Shown: positions 17,443 to 64,000, numbered from the stretch's first letter. The stretch is DNA of 64,000 bases from Eledone cirrhosa (GCA_964016885.1 OZ024766.1:2914001-2978000), one strand, 5' to 3'. Made by a program: numbers and translations. The notes: generated by a model not told the origin, from the sequence alone.

Positions 17443-17552
17443 CAGGTGATAGAGGCTCCTTCAGTCAGACATTACAACGGGGGATATTTGTGTTATAATT
17501 TAACATTTCTGAGACAAGATGAAACACACAGCATTACTCAGGTGATAGAGGG
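17443..17552. repeat. Degenerate ~1.3 copies of the 90/94-bp B-unit minisatellite, marking the left edge of the B array
   Basis: tcaggtgatagagg...acattacaac...aacatttctgagacaaga...cacagcattactcaggtgatagaggg. Confidence 0.7.
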
Positions 17553-17554
17553 GC

Positions 17555-18284
17555 AACACATATTTCACAGTGATGTTGTTTGTGTCCAGTGTGTTTGTTT
17601 CTGCTTATTTAAATCACTGCACCTGACAAAATATTTCTCATATTTCACAATGGAAGTGTTTCTTCTTTTGTGAACAGTTAAACTACTGTTTTCAAGGAAA
17701 CATTACCCACACATTTCACAGTGACAGAGTTTTACTCCAGTGTTACTACGTATGTCTCCAACAAGATGAGAATTTCAAGGTATCAATTTACCACGTATTT
17801 CACAGTGATGTTGTTTATTCCCAGTGTGTTTATTTCTGTTTATTTAAATCCCTGCAACTCACATATTTCACAACAGAAGTGTTTTTCTCCAGTGTCACTA
17901 TGTATATTGTCAAGAAGATTAGATTTACTAATGAAAAACTTATTATACAGTGATATTGATTCTCTCCAGTGTGTGTACTTTTGTGAACAATTAAATGAGA
18001 GCTATAGCCAAAACATTTCCCACATATTTCACAATGGAAAGGTTTTTCTCCAGTGTGTCCTTTGATGTACTGTTAAATCACTAGTTTTAATAAAAGGTTT
18101 ATCACATACTTCACAATGATACGGCTTTTTCCCCAGTGTGACATCATATATGGCTGTAATTCTGAGTGAAAGATTTCCCACATATTTCACAGTGATAGGG
18201 TTTGTCTTTAATAATCTCACAGCTTTATTCAGGAATATTTCTATCTAATAAATCTTGTTCAGTACATGTTTCATTGCGGAAGGG
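17555..18284 (-). pseudogene. Decayed zinc-finger tail downstream of B1
   Basis: Recurrent cacatatttcaca / ctccagtgtg finger-linker remnants with stops and frameshifts. Confidence 0.8.
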
Positions 18285-20576
18285 TTATTCCCCAGTGTGA
18301 ATACGTATATGATTATTAAGTATCGAACTCTCAGGAAAAGATTTCCCACATATTTCACAATGGAAGGATTTTTCCCCAGTGTGAGTTCTTATGTGTGCAG
18401 TCAAATTACAGTTACGGAGAAAAGATTTCCCACATGTTTCACAATGAAAGAGTTTCTCTCCAGTGTGTTTGTATTTGTGTCTCGTTAAGTCACTGCTGGA
18501 GACAAATGTTTTCCCACATATTTCACAGTGATAGGGTTTCTCTCCAGTGTGTTTTCTCATGTGTACAGTTAAGTTACTGTTTTGAACAAATGATTTCCCA
18601 CATATTTCACAATTATAGGGTTTCTCTCCAGTGTGGGTTCTTTTATGTTTAGTTAAATCACCCCTTGTAACAAAAGATTTCCCACATATTTCACAATGGA
18701 AGGGTTTCTCTCCAGTGTGGGTTCTTTTATGTTTAGTTAAATCACTCCTTGTAACAAAAGATTTCCCACATATTTCACAATGGAAGGGTTTCTCTCCAGT
18801 GTGTGTTCTTTTGTGTGTAGTCAAATAACTTCTTGCAACAAAAGATTTCCCACATATTTCACAGTGGAAGGGTTTCTCTACAGTGTGTCTATGTATGTGT
18901 CTAACAAGATGGGATTTCTGAGTGAAAGATTTCCCACATGTTTCACAGTGAAAGGGTTTCTCACCTGTATGTGTTCTTTTGTGTATAGTTAAAAGATTGT
19001 GTGAAACAAAACATTTCCCACATATTTCACAATGGAAGGATTTCTCTCCAGTGTGAGTTATTATGTGTTTAGATAAATCGCTGTTACACACAAAAGATTT
19101 CCCACATGTTTCACAGTGGAAGGGTTTCTCTCCAGTGTGTGTTCTTATGTGTCTCGATAAATCGCTGTTACGCACAAAAGATTTCCCACATGTTTCACAG
19201 TGGAAGGGTTTCTCTCCAGTGTGTGTTCTTATGTGTCTCGATAAATCGCTGTTACACACAAAAGATTTCCCACATGTTTCACAGTGGAAGGGTTTCTCTC
19301 CAGTGTGTTTGTATTTGTGTCTCGTTAAGTCACTGCTGGAGACAAATGTTTTCCCACATATTTCACAGTGATAGGGTTTCTCTCCAGTGTGTGTTCTTAT
19401 GTGTACAGTTAAGTTACTGATTTGAACAAATGATTTCCCACATATTTCACAATTATAGGGTTTCTCTCCAGTGTGGGTTCTTTTATGTTTAGTTAAATCA
19501 CTCCTTGTAACAAAAGATTTCCCACATATTTCACAATGAAAGGGTTTTTCTCCTGTGTGTATTCTTTTGTGTCGCAACAAAGTATAGCTACGACCGAAAT
19601 ATTTCCCACATATTTCACAATTGAAGGGTTCCTCTCCAGTGTGTGTTCTTTTGTGTCTAGATAAGTCATTGTTTGTACGAAAAAATTCCCCACATGTCTC
19701 ACAGTGGAAGGGTTTCTCTCTAGTGTGGGTTCTTTTGTGTGTGTTCAAATAACTCCTTCTAACAAAACATTTCCCACATATTTCACAATGGAAGGGTTTT
19801 TCCCCAGTGTGACTACGTATGTGGATAACAAGATGGGGTTTCTGAGTGAAACATTTCCCACATATTTCACAATGGAAGGGTTTTTCTCCTGTGTGTATTC
19901 TTTTGTGTCGCCACAAAGTACAACTACGACCAAAATATTTCCCACATGTCTCACAATGGAAGGGTTTTTCCCCAGTGTGGCTACATATGTGGTTAACAAG
20001 ATGGGATTTCTGAGTGAAACATTTCCCACATATTTCACAATGGAAGGGTTTTTCCCCAGTGTGACTACGTATGTGGATAACAAGATAGGGTTTCTGAGTG
20101 AAACGTTTCCCACATATTTCACAATAGAAGGGTTTTTCCCCAGTGTGACTACGTATGTGGATAACAAGATGGGGTTTCTGAGTGAAACATTTCCCACATA
20201 TTTCACAGTCGAAGGGTTTCTCTCCTGTGTGTGTTCTTTTGTGTTGCAACAGAGTAGAGCTAAGACCAAAATATTTCCCACATATTTCACATTTGAAGGG
20301 TTTCTCTCCTCTGTGTCTACATAAATCACTGTTACAGACAACATATTTCCCACATGTCTCACAGTGTTTGTGTTTGTGTGTAGATAAATCATCTTCTGAT
20401 GGGAAAGTTTTCCTACAAACCCCACAGCTATATTCAGGAATATTTCTGTGTAATGATCCTTGTTCAGTACACGTTTCACTGGGTAAAGGTTTCTCCCCAC
20501 TGTATGACTGTGTAACTATATCTATATTGGTAGAAACAGGTGTGGTAGAAATGTCCAAGCGTTTAACGTCTTCCAT
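18285..20576 (-). CDS. C2H2 zinc-finger protein B1 (763 aa, 24 canonical fingers plus 2 atypical N-terminal ones); most divergent B copy
   Basis: ATG at 20576 (MEDVKRLDIST) and an uninterrupted 28-aa finger array ending HIRIHTGE*. Confidence 0.92.
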   Translation of the reverse strand: MEDVKRLDISTTPVSTNIDIVTQSYSGEKPLPSETCTEQGSLHRNIPEYSCGVCRKTFPSEDDLSTHKHKHCETCGKYVVCNSDLCRHRGEKPFKCEICGKYFGLSSTLLQHKRTHTGEKPFDCEICGKCFTQKPHLVIHIRSHTGEKPFYCEICGKRFTQKPYLVIHIRSHTGEKPFHCEICGKCFTQKSHLVNHICSHTGEKPFHCETCGKYFGRSCTLWRHKRIHTGEKPFHCEICGKCFTQKPHLVIHIRSHTGEKPFHCEICGKCFVRRSYLNTHKRTHTREKPFHCETCGEFFRTNNDLSRHKRTHTGEEPFNCEICGKYFGRSYTLLRHKRIHTGEKPFHCEICGKSFVTRSDLTKHKRTHTGEKPYNCEICGKSFVQISNLTVHIRTHTGEKPYHCEICGKTFVSSSDLTRHKYKHTGEKPFHCETCGKSFVCNSDLSRHIRTHTGEKPFHCETCGKSFVRNSDLSRHIRTHTGEKPFHCETCGKSFVCNSDLSKHIITHTGEKSFHCEICGKCFVSHNLLTIHKRTHTGEKPFHCETCGKSFTQKSHLVRHIHRHTVEKPFHCEICGKSFVARSYLTTHKRTHTGEKPFHCEICGKSFVTRSDLTKHKRTHTGEKPFHCEICGKSFVTRGDLTKHKRTHTGEKPYNCEICGKSFVQNSNLTVHMRKHTGEKPYHCEICGKTFVSSSDLTRHKYKHTGEKLFHCETCGKSFLRNCNLTAHIRTHTGEKSFHCEICGKSFPESSILNNHIRIHTGE

Positions 20577-62105: not shown

Positions 62106-62380
62106 TATTGGTGCTGCTTTCTAATATTTCTGAGACAGGATACTCACAGCATTAGTTCAGGTGATAGAGGGTCCCTCAATTACACACCACAACAGGGGAT
62201 GTTGGTGTTGACCCGTAACATATCTGAGACAAGACACATCATTACCTCAGGTGATAGAGAGTCCCTCAATTACAAATTACAACAGGGAATGTTGGTGTTG
62301 ACCCCTAACATATCTGATACAAGACACATTATTACCTCAGGTGATAGAGGGTCCCTCAATTACACATTACAACAGGGAAT
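62106..62380. repeat. 90/94-bp minisatellite, 3 copies
   Basis: Three cores counted. Confidence 0.88.
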
Positions 62381-62519
62381 TTTAGCTATTGCAAACAAAG
62401 AAAAAAGAAAAAGAATTTTGCAATTATATCATGATTCTAGTTAGAAATATATTTAAGAAATGAAGTCTGTAGAAGTGTTATGGTTACATTTTAGATGTTG
62501 GTGGACAATAAGTTTAGAC

Positions 62520-64000
62520 TGGTAAAAGGAAGGGTATTTCAGGGTTCACAGTTAAATAGTTTTATCACCAGTGTGTGTGTTTCTGTCTAAGTTTCTGTTA
62601 GTCACAAAATATTTCCCACATGTTTCACTGGGGAAGGCCCTTTTTCTGCAGTCTGACTATGTGGCCAACATGAGTAGAATTCTAAATAAAAGATGTCTCA
62701 ACATGTTTCACACTGGAAGTTTCTTTCCCCCAATCTGAATAAAAGATTTCCAACATGTTTCCCAGTGGAAGTTTCTTTCCTCCAGTCTGAATAAAAGATT
62801 TCCATCATGTTTCACAGTGGAAGTTTCTTTCCTCCAGTCTGAAGACATATATGTTTATTAAGTACCAAACTATCTGTAAAAGATTTCTCACATTTTTCAC
62901 TTGATAGGTTTTTCTTCAAAGTGTTCTTTTGTGTCTTTCTAACCATTTGTAACAAAACCTTTCCAATATATTAAAAAAAATATGGTTTTTCTCCAGTATG
63001 TGTGTTCTTTTGTGTAAATGACCATTTGTAACAAAATATAAATCCCATATTTCTAAATGATATCGGTTTTCTCCGGTGTGTTCTTTGAAAAACACTGATT
63101 TTGACATAACATTTCCCACATTTTTAACAGGGATATGATTTTTCTGCAGTATGTGTTGTTTTTTTTTGTCTTCAAATGATTGTTTTCATGAAAGATTACC
63201 CACACATTTCATAGTGGCAAAGTTTTTTCCTCCAGTGTCAAACAAAATGAGAATTTCAAGTGAACACATCACCACATATTTCACAGTGATGTTTGTGCTT
63301 ATTTAAATCACTGCACCTGACAAAATATTTCTCACATATTTCACATTGGAAGTGTTTGTTTTTATGTGAACAGTTAAACTAGTTTTCAAGAAAACATTAC
63401 CCACACATTTCACAGTGATAGGGTTTTTCTCCAGTGTTACTACGTATGTCTCGAATAAGATGAGAATTTCAACATATCAACTTACTACATATTTCATTGA
63501 TGTTGTTTATTCCCAGTGTGTTCATTTATGTTTATATAAATCCCTGCAACTCACACATTTCACAACAGAAGTGTTTTTCTCCAGTGTCACTATGTATATT
63601 GTCAAGAAGATTAGATTTACTAATGAAAGACTTATTATATAGTGATATTGATTCTCTCCAGTGTGTGTACTTTTGTGAAAAATTAAATGAGAACTACAGC
63701 CAAAACATTTCCTTCATATTTCACAACGGAAAGGTTTTTTTCCAGTGTGTTCTTTTATGTACTGTTAAATCACTGCTTTTAATAAAAGGTGTATCACATA
63801 CTGCACAATGATACGGCTTTTTCCCCAGTGTGACATCATATATGTAATTCTGAGTGAAAGATTTCACAGTGATAGGGTTTGTCTTTAATATGTATGAGTT
63901 TGTGTGTGGATATTTCATCTTCTGATAAGAATGTTTTCCAACAAATCTCACAGCTATATTCAGGAATATTTCTATCTAATAATTCTTGTTCAGTACATGT
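62520..64000 (-). pseudogene. Decayed tail of an eleventh B unit whose CDS lies beyond the right edge
   Basis: Near-identical to 58310-59790 (offset 4209). Confidence 0.8.

What the first reader, a model, noticed from the sequence alone, without database searches (positions are those of the whole stretch)
17443..64000. Tandem ZNF array that diversifies by combinatorial shuffling of whole 84-bp finger cassettes between fixed end blocks
Seen: ten head-to-tail genes (ATG spacing 4354, 4038, 4550, 4554, 4554, 5051, 5079, 4224, 4207 bp) with closely similar spacers but finger counts from ~10 to 24. B2-B10 draw on a small shared vocabulary of recognition helices in a fixed order. The N-cap is CNRD or xIHD, then RSST/LSST. 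The variable middle uses QEPN/QEHN, HKSS/HKSV, QKSA/QKSH and INID/INRD/INND. The C-block is LRSN/LSSN, then SSSD/CNSD, RSSQ, QSSx and ESWI (the two middle fingers are missing in B4-B6). Established: cephalopods have large clustered C2H2 expansions without KRAB, and PRDM9 and KRAB-ZNF finger arrays evolve as coding minisatellites. Inference: this locus is actively generating new DNA-binding specificities, possibly against repeats or TEs, using proteins with no recognisable effector domain.
Basis: partly seen in the sequence, partly recalled or inferred. Interest (0 to 1): 0.75.

Follow-up and report, generated by a model that had tools for sequence, protein, structure and literature searches.

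The report
Young octopod zinc-finger recombining gene array
A dozen recently copied zinc-finger genes sit head to tail in a cephalopod genome; they gain and lose whole 84-base fingers in a mostly fixed order, and their middle fingers change fastest at the DNA-reading positions, so they likely evolve new DNA targets much as young mouse zinc-finger clusters do, but expression and targets are untested.

Summary
All nine ATG spacings are exact, and the young family runs past the window to 12 copies (B2-B13) plus a diverged B1.

Fingers group by helix class, not by gene (nearest neighbour in another gene for 121 of 135). B10 and B11 differ by 1 base but by 84-, 168- and 84-bp gaps. Contact codons of the middle fingers show excess amino-acid change (dN/dS about 2.4, p 0.003); end fingers about 1.1, scaffold about 0.4.

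The interpretation needs trimming. Finger order is largely kept (31 neighbour types against 86 when shuffled), so this is block duplication, deletion and chimera formation, plus point mutation and sub-finger mosaics, not free shuffling. The C-block is not fixed: B4-B6 are frameshifted before it, and ESWI is in frame in only 2 of 12. The contact excess also appears in neighbouring subfamilies of this genome.

It is not PRDM9, and no KRAB domain was seen. The closest known system is the young mouse KRAB-ZNF cluster. Transcription and TE targets are untested. The scan noted the same pattern on another piece of this genome (e1-9557371). Side finding: a near-invariant 240-bp non-coding block precedes each gene.

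The parts
18285..20576 (-). B1: diverged member, 763 aa, 24 fingers plus a degenerate first finger
23623..24930 (-). B2: 435 aa, finger classes ABBCDEFGHIHIJ (ESWI out of frame)
27190..28968 (-). B3: 592 aa, ABCDCDEDDEDDDEFGHIK
32475..33518 (-). B4: 347 aa, ABCDDEDLDE, then a one-base frameshift; six more fingers follow out of frame
37029..38072 (-). B5: as B4; the unit differs from B6 at 4 of 4554 bases
41583..42626 (-). B6: as B5
45719..47677 (-). B7: 652 aa, ABCDDDEDDDEDDDEFGHIIJ; finger 9 has lost its first Cys
50726..52756 (-). B8: 676 aa, ABCDCDDCDECDMDDDDFGHIK
55841..56980 (-). B9: 379 aa, NBBBOEFGHIJ
59877..61187 (-). B10: 436 aa, NBBOEDEFGHIIJ. B11, B12 and B13 continue outside the window (starts at window-equivalent 65732, 70277, 74309)
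47546..47677 (-). 44-50 aa leader (MEDVK[H/P]LDIS...RNIPEYS), shown for B7; present in every B gene and at 150 of 150 scored places (463 candidates) in the genome; weak constraint (dN/dS 0.5-0.6)
47857..48097 (-). Near-invariant non-coding block, -420 to -180 from the ATG (shown for B7; one precedes each of B1-B13); likely promoter or 5' leader element
   Evidence: no Rfam match
44000..45650 (-). Decayed second zinc-finger frame behind the gene (shown for B7; one per unit, shortened in B2 and B3), ending in a 52-bp repeat; boundaries approximate
48599..49046 (.). 90/94-bp minisatellite between one gene's tail and the next gene's upstream block (shown for B7; 2-10 copies in each unit)

Best explanation
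This is a young tandem cluster of effector-less poly-C2H2 zinc-finger genes in a cephalopod (likely octopod) genome, whose copies differ by whole-finger gains and losses and by chimeric joins, likely made by unequal crossing-over and gene conversion, with likely positive selection on the DNA-contact residues of the middle fingers. The duplicated unit (4.0-5.1 kb) is self-contained: conserved upstream block, short leader, finger array, decayed finger tail and minisatellite. Misalignment at the unit scale changes gene number. Misalignment at the 84-bp scale, within or between copies, duplicates or deletes blocks of fingers in frame and joins the front of one gene to the back of another, which keeps the ancestral order A-B-(C-D|O)-E-F-G-H-I-J-K with local repeats. 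Short conversions and point mutations then rewrite positions -1, 2, 3 and 6. The products are predicted to bind new DNA sequences, most likely lineage-specific repeats (inferred from the literature only), and many copies decay by frameshift (birth and death). Shown: the anatomy, finger classes, 84-bp indels, mosaic flanks, contact-site excess and frameshifts. Inferred: the recombination mechanism, selection as the cause, the promoter role of the block, expression and targets.
For: Nearest finger lies in another gene for 121 of 135, in the same gene for 8, tied for 6; shuffled gene labels give 109 and 10. B10 vs B11: 1 mismatch in 1373 aligned bases and gaps of 84, 168 and 84; B9 vs B11: 16 mismatches and gaps of 420, 3 and 84. 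Spacers are recombinant (74 sites; nearby incompatibility 0.18 against 0.27 permuted, p 0.0005). 5' and 3' flanks disagree: B13 is 5.1-5.2% from B10-B12 upstream but 0.3% downstream. B13 finger 2 is one base from B1 fingers 10 and 19. Counting each codon allele once per class: middle fingers contact dN/dS 2.35 (26 N vs 20 S, p 0.003), class D 3.55 (15 vs 8, p 0.003), scaffold 0.35-0.46. In 26 distinct D fingers +1, +4 and +5 are invariant while -1, +2, +3 and +6 have 6, 3, 4 and 4 residues. Only 2 of 7315 four-codon sets reach the contact set's count in the middle fingers. 10 distinct fingerprint arrays among 12 genes. An upstream block precedes all 13 B genes. Cephalopod hemocyanin match. Parallel: mouse KZFP clusters (PMC5363842 section 7; PMC12575710 passages).
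Against: The selection tests are counts within classes cut at a chosen distance, not codon-model likelihoods; conversion violates tree assumptions (PMC5519329 section 25). First-finger classes A and N and out-of-frame fingers were left out. End-block contact dN/dS is 1.08 (11 N vs 20 S, p 0.49), so those fingers show neither positive nor clear purifying selection at contacts. Over all classes the ratio is only 1.67 (p 0.013). Three of 12 young copies are truncated and 10 of 12 have lost ESWI. One haploid assembly shows no process in action. No binding or expression data were obtained.
Confidence: 0.7

Rival explanations
1. Neutral turnover: the array is a coding minisatellite in a recombination-prone cluster; fingers are gained and lost by drift, the scaffold is kept by weak purifying selection or homogenisation, contact positions are merely free, and many copies are on their way to being pseudogenes.
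For: B4-B6 frameshifted yet triplicated; ESWI out of frame in 10 of 12; a broken finger in B7; a dead finger tail in each unit. End-block contact ratio 1.08. The PRDM9-type statistic is ordinary.
Against: Free positions would give dN/dS near 1, but middle contacts give 2.35-3.55 on the allele count, while adjacent +1, +4 and +5 are invariant in 26 of 26 D fingers. Nine of 12 young frames are open for 11-22 fingers. The upstream block is far more conserved than synonymous sites.
Confidence: 0.17
2. The frames are alternative last exons of one long gene, spliced to a shared upstream exon that encodes an effector domain.
For: All finger frames over about 200 kb lie on one strand. An AG lies 7 or 18 bases before the ATG, and the frame is open upstream of it.
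Against: Each unit carries its own near-invariant upstream block, and so do dispersed members on other contigs and in both orientations. The ATG is kept in nearly all leaders. No PR/SET match on this contig among 14 matches. No longer protein with this leader among 8 candidates, which is weak evidence.
Confidence: 0.06
3. The near-identical copies and some finger-number differences are assembly artefacts.
For: B5/B6 and B11/B12 differ at only 4 bases in about 4550.
Against: The other units differ by 0.2-3.9% with mosaic patterns, and 10 distinct arrays are present. No N in 204 kb. At most this rival removes two or three copies and leaves the pattern.
Confidence: 0.05
4. The genes are a PRDM9-derived recombination-targeting family that has lost or borrows its PR/SET part.
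For: 84-bp finger turnover and contact-site selection resemble PRDM9; earlier scan notes report an intact PRDM9 elsewhere in this genome (unchecked).
Against: No PR/SET on contig C27. Fingers within a gene are only 72-77% identical in DNA, and the contact share of diversity is 0.29-0.38 with four positions (0.24-0.31 with three), ranking 10th-73rd of 87 arrays, against 0.687 for human and 0.910 for mouse PRDM9, each ranked first in its genome.
Confidence: 0.02

Closest known systems
Young mouse KRAB-ZNF clusters (Kauzlaric 2017, PMC5363842, section 7 and passages read; Bruno 2025, PMC12575710, passages read)
   Same: Tandem paralogues share fingerprint arrays; single fingers are duplicated in tandem and blocks of 2-7 fingers repeat within genes; new fingerprints arise fast; many copies degenerate; clusters grow by non-allelic recombination.
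   Different: No KRAB domain was seen here. The unit is a compact 4-5 kb single frame with its own upstream block, duplicated gene by gene, whereas the mouse cluster grows by large multi-gene segmental duplications promoted by ERVs. TE binding is shown in mouse and untested here.
Lineage-specific C2H2 expansions of coleoid cephalopods (Holzinger 2025, PMC12513265, parts 1-3 of 7 read; Albertin 2022, PMC9068888, passages read)
   Same: Large clustered, lineage-specific C2H2 families on a few chromosomes; octopus-specific clades of 104-495 genes.
   Different: The parts I read treat gene trees and expression, not finger-level recombination or selection. I did not place this family in their tree.
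Zebrafish FiNZ-ZNF family (Wells 2023, PMC10547256, sections 6 and 10 and passages read)
   Same: KRAB-independent, clustered, recently duplicated tandem-finger genes with dN/dS above 1 at base-contacting residues in some clades; the same paper predicts that octopus ZNFs are enriched for TE targets.
   Different: FiNZ genes have a conserved N-terminal domain and knock-down evidence. The leader here is only weakly constrained (dN/dS 0.5-0.6) and matches no Pfam family except C2H2 types.
PRDM9 finger array (Baker 2017, PMC5519329, section 10 part 1 of 2 and section 25 read)
   Same: 84-bp unit turnover, conversion between fingers, excess change at contact residues.
   Different: No PR/SET or KRAB. 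Fingers are far less homogenised, class order is kept, and diversity is spread over a dozen paralogues rather than alleles of one gene.

Membership tests
Cephalopod expanded poly-C2H2 cluster genes | Host is a coleoid cephalopod | tested here: met
   A hemocyanin unit of the genome scores 650-659 bits against three PDB hemocyanins that I recall as squid and octopus (6r83, 4yd9, 1js8), against at most 508 for the others. Seven-unit hemocyanin genes point to an octopod (recalled rule).
Cephalopod expanded poly-C2H2 cluster genes | Tandem canonical C2H2 arrays in clustered, lineage-specific paralogues | tested here: met
   No database protein above 57% identity among the best 120 listed.
Cephalopod expanded poly-C2H2 cluster genes | Expression in nervous or embryonic tissue | not testable with these tools
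   No expression data were obtained.
KRAB-ZNF | KRAB domain N-terminal to the fingers | tested here: not met
   No KRAB in the Pfam scan of 5 frames, including the open frame upstream of the ATG. The genome-wide KRAB search gave 0 of 14 candidates, but its controls rang nowhere, so it shows little.
KRAB-ZNF | Works like one: finger duplication, deletion and contact-site selection in young clusters | tested here: met
KRAB-ZNF | Binds and silences TEs | not testable with these tools
   No motif predictor, TE library or binding data were available.
PRDM9 | PR/SET domain linked to the array | tested here: not met
   14 PF21549 matches from 21 candidates, none on contig C27; none in the proteins.
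PRDM9 | [quoted passage not shown] | tested here: not met
   Ranks 10-73 of 87 arrays from a non-random sample of this genome's clusters; finger DNA identity 0.72-0.77. B3 and B8 (0.37, four positions) touch the low end of the published complete-PRDM9 range, 0.33-1.0; the sections I read do not list the positions used.
FiNZ-ZNF-like (accessory-domain ZNF) | Conserved N-terminal accessory domain | tested here: inconclusive
   Leader dN/dS 0.61 on allele counts (43 N, 21 S, p 0.045) and 0.49 pairwise among 28 distinct leaders; L-D-I invariant; no Pfam family; no informative homologue.

The most novel reading that the evidence does not exclude
Octopods run a KRAB-independent, recombination-fed repressor library: hundreds of compact genes share one near-invariant promoter block and one short leader whose PLDIS form resembles the CtBP-binding PxDLS motif (recalled), and arrays such as this one act as a multi-gene PRDM9-like generator whose finger strings differ between individuals and are selected against young repeats.
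Probability: 0.15. Interest if true: 0.75.

Novelty: new member of a known kind. Interest (0 to 1): 0.42.

Why it matters
Cephalopod C2H2 expansions are well known, but whether they serve neural regulation or TE defence is open (PMC12988792 section 9). This array gives finger-level evidence of in-frame turnover and contact-site selection in an invertebrate family with no recognisable effector domain. It also offers near-isogenic gene pairs (B10/B11, B4/B5, B6/B7) that differ only in defined fingers, which makes the target question directly testable. The process itself is already described for mouse KRAB-ZNF clusters and zebrafish FiNZ genes, and it is general in this genome, so the locus is a clean example rather than a new principle.

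Tried and rejected
Expression: no RNA holder listed. Four coded runs laid on 54200-58450 were contigs only, two of unrecorded kind; they cover the frame and the spacer alike, show no joint that I could read as splicing, and say nothing on expression. Whether run X4 is RNA or DNA stays open. Contig depths of run X1 (48, 133 and 144) rise with the number of assembly copies that hold those words (mean 4.4, 8.7 and 8.8 in the 254 kb counted), but the tool warns that depth is no copy number and X1 may be the assembly's own sample, so I give this no weight. Leader homologues: one weak Pecten hit from 3 candidates; none among 8 longer candidates; the Atlas gave no answer for the leader. The whole-protein search returned generic ZNFs of 33-57% identity in the 120 listed of 2031. 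Upstream block as RNA gene or exon: no Rfam match at E up to 1 in 45000-50700, folding z -0.05 and +0.68, and stops in all six frames; rejected. CtBP motif: P is present in 22 of 56 listed leaders and in none of B1-B13, so it is a lead only; one literature search was seen as a listing. Free permutation of fingers: rejected by the adjacency test. PRDM9 identity: rejected. Uniqueness of the locus: rejected; with no transition bias assumed, contact dN/dS is 1.75-1.87 in the S-type, 1.6 in other MEDVK, 1.2-1.4 in the C27 400-580 kb group, 1.8-2.5 in the C27 2.54 Mb group, 1.1-1.6 in the A-type (not significant) and 0.6-1.2 in a small remainder. Albertin 2015 is not held, so my recollection that it links octopus C2H2 genes to a 70-90 bp satellite is unchecked. 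Literature: a search for cephalopod finger duplication, recombination and diversifying selection (at least 4 of 5 terms) found 0 papers; searches listed none on this in cephalopods by title or abstract start. Subscription papers and supplements were not seen.
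Full report
Setting. The window is G000:C27:2914001-2978000 in a 3.0-Gb assembly. A hemocyanin unit from this genome scores 650-659 bits against three PDB hemocyanins that I recall as squid and octopus, and at most 508 against the rest. 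The hemocyanin genes have seven units, which points to an octopod (recalled rule). I read 40 kb to the left and 100 kb to the right of the window, and 46 further 10-kb stretches chosen around hits of a query at window 17400-17900, so that sample is not random.

Observation. Ten minus-strand frames start at 20576, 24930, 28968, 33518, 38072, 42626, 47677, 52756, 56980 and 61187, giving exactly the nine spacings stated. Three more young copies follow outside the window at 65732, 70277 and 74309. Spacers of B2-B13 differ by 0.1-3.9%. In-frame finger counts are 24, 13, 19, 10, 10, 10, 21, 22, 11 and 13 for B1-B10. Each unit holds a conserved upstream block, a 44-50 aa leader, the finger array, a decayed second finger frame of about 1.6 kb and a 90/94-bp minisatellite. 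B4-B6 have a one-base frameshift before the LRSN finger and end at 347 aa. The ESWI finger is in frame only in B3 and B8, 2 of 12.

Finger classes. The 199 fingers of B2-B13 fall into 16 DNA classes, and each gene reads as a string (lower case is out of frame): B2 ABBCDEFGHIHIJk; B3 ABCDCDEDDEDDDEFGHIK; B4-B6 ABCDDEDLDEfiiijk; B7 ABCDDDEDDDEDDDEFGHIIJk; B8 ABCDCDDCDECDMDDDDFGHIK; B9 NBBBOEFGHIJk; B10 NBBOEDEFGHIIJk; B11-B12 NBBBOEFGDDEFGHIIJk; B13 AMPOEFGHIIJk. Among eight representative genes the nearest finger is in another gene for 121 of 135, in the same gene for 8 and tied for 6; shuffled gene labels give 109 and 10. So fingers do not cluster by gene. Order, however, is strongly kept: 31 distinct neighbour pairs among 140 in nine genes against 85.7 in shuffles, and 16 of 59 against 20.1 inside the middle (p 0.004). 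The pattern is one ancestral order with block repeats and deletions.

Recombination. B10 and B11 differ by 1 base in 1373 aligned bases of the coding region but by gaps of 84, 168 and 84 bp; B9 and B11 by 16 bases and gaps of 420, 3 and 84. More distant pairs align with irregular gaps and are not informative. B5/B6 and B11/B12 differ at 4 bases per unit with no finger change; B4/B5 differ at 30 bases, four of them in fingers 3-4. The spacers are mosaic: among 74 informative sites, nearby incompatibility is 0.18 against 0.27 in 2000 permutations, p 0.0005. Flanks disagree: B13 is 5.1-5.2% from B10-B12 upstream but 0.3% downstream. B13 finger 2 is one base from fingers of the diverged B1. Exchange is not limited to whole cassettes: in class D, 18 of 36 informative site pairs show all four gametes, and finger 9 of B11 joins an I-type front to a D-type helix. 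Unequal crossing-over and conversion are inferred from these patterns, not observed.

Selection. I counted changes within classes, using in-frame fingers only and leaving out first-finger classes A and N. On minimum spanning trees, contact dN/dS is 2.10 overall, 2.74 in the middle, 1.29 in the ends and 0.26-0.40 in the scaffold. Counting each codon allele once per class, which removes inflation by conversion, gives 1.67 overall (40 N, 45 S, p 0.013), 2.35 in the middle (26, 20, p 0.003), 3.55 in class D (15, 8, p 0.003) and 1.08 in the ends (11, 20, p 0.49), with scaffold 0.35-0.46. In 26 distinct D fingers +1, +4 and +5 never change, while -1, +2, +3 and +6 take 6, 3, 4 and 4 residues. Only 2 of 7315 four-codon sets match the contact set in the middle fingers, against 1173 of 7315 in the ends. 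The 12 genes give 10 distinct fingerprint arrays from 56 contact quartets, 32 of them private to one gene group. Point change at contacts therefore matters as much as cassette reuse. These are counts, not likelihood tests, and conversion breaks tree assumptions (PMC5519329 section 25).

Not unique in the genome. The same count gives contact ratios of 1.1-2.5 in five neighbouring groups, significant in four at one or both cut-offs, and 0.6-1.2 in a small remainder. By the PRDM9 statistic the B genes score 0.29-0.38 (four positions) and rank 10th to 73rd of 87 arrays, with finger identity of 72-77%, against 0.687 for human and 0.910 for mouse PRDM9. No PR/SET match lies on C27 among 14 matches. 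An earlier scan note describes the same pattern on another piece of this genome (e1-9557371; unchecked).

Effector and gene structure. A Pfam scan of five frames found only C2H2-type matches and weak cumulative look-alikes. The leader occurs at 150 of 150 scored places out of 463 candidates, on many contigs. It is weakly constrained (dN/dS 0.5-0.6 among 28 distinct leaders). Its start reads MEDVK[P/H]LDIS; the P form resembles the CtBP-binding PxDLS motif (recalled), but B2-B13 carry H. A non-coding block at -420 to -180 differs by 0.7-3.7% among 34 intact members, against 11-24% just upstream and about 9% at leader synonymous sites. A profile of the upstream region finds it before all 13 B genes and, in diverged form, before the S-type genes, but not before the A-type. 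It has no open frame, no folding signal and no Rfam match. I read it as a promoter or leader element that makes each unit a self-contained gene; this is inferred.

Comparison. Mouse KRAB-ZNF clusters show the same modes: single fingers repeated in tandem, blocks of 2-7 fingers repeated, fast new fingerprints and decay (PMC5363842 section 7), and mostly strain-specific fingerprint arrays (PMC12575710 passages). Zebrafish FiNZ-ZNFs show contact-site selection without KRAB, and the same paper predicts TE-enriched targets for octopus ZNFs (PMC10547256 passages and sections 6 and 10). Cephalopod C2H2 expansions are described at gene-tree and expression level (PMC12513265 parts 1-3 of 7; PMC9068888 passages). 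My searches found no finger-level study in cephalopods, within the limits of the library.

Verdict. The feature is real and well described. It is a young member of the known class of fast-evolving tandem C2H2 clusters: it works like a young KRAB-ZNF cluster without being one. Interest 0.42.

Noticed in passing
window 47857-48097 (minus) and the equivalent place before each B gene: Near-invariant 240-bp non-coding block, 98-100% identical at the 40 places scored of 300 candidates, on several contigs; more conserved than synonymous sites; no Rfam match, frame or fold signal.
   Followed up: partly
window 47648-47677 (minus), leader start: MEDVK[P/H]LDIS with invariant L-D-I; the P form resembles the CtBP PxDLS motif (recalled); the young array has H and B1 has R.
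   Followed up: partly
window 716-3290: 39 copies of a 66-bp satellite at 96% match, with open frames on the minus strand; an orphan copy of the upstream block lies next to it at about -83 to 272.
   Followed up: no
window 3745-5028 and 9847-11235 (minus): Two 14-finger genes of another subfamily (EMS... start) that share most helices and lack the upstream block.
   Followed up: partly
window 21507-22403 and the equivalent place in each unit: A 90/94-bp minisatellite sits upstream of many family members on several contigs; it may be the satellite that I recall being reported with octopus C2H2 genes (unchecked).
   Followed up: partly
window 49347-49561 and the equivalent place in each unit: A 52-bp tandem repeat at the end of each decayed tail looks like a collapsed finger remnant.
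   Followed up: no
L002-L006 (window-equivalent 79000-123000): S-type genes (SKLKLSS/CSSSLTR first finger) with up to 21 fingers, finger identity up to 0.83 and the same contact-site excess; candidate 5' splice sites lie before their first finger.
   Followed up: partly
L025-L028 (C27 403000-435000): An older MEDVK subfamily with its own shared vocabulary (SNFNLVG, GKFNLKL, GNNKLTI) and block duplications, one gene with 28 fingers.
   Followed up: partly
G000:C26:21.93-22.02 Mb: Two hemocyanin genes in inverted orientation with matching unit scores, possibly a recent inverted duplication.
   Followed up: no
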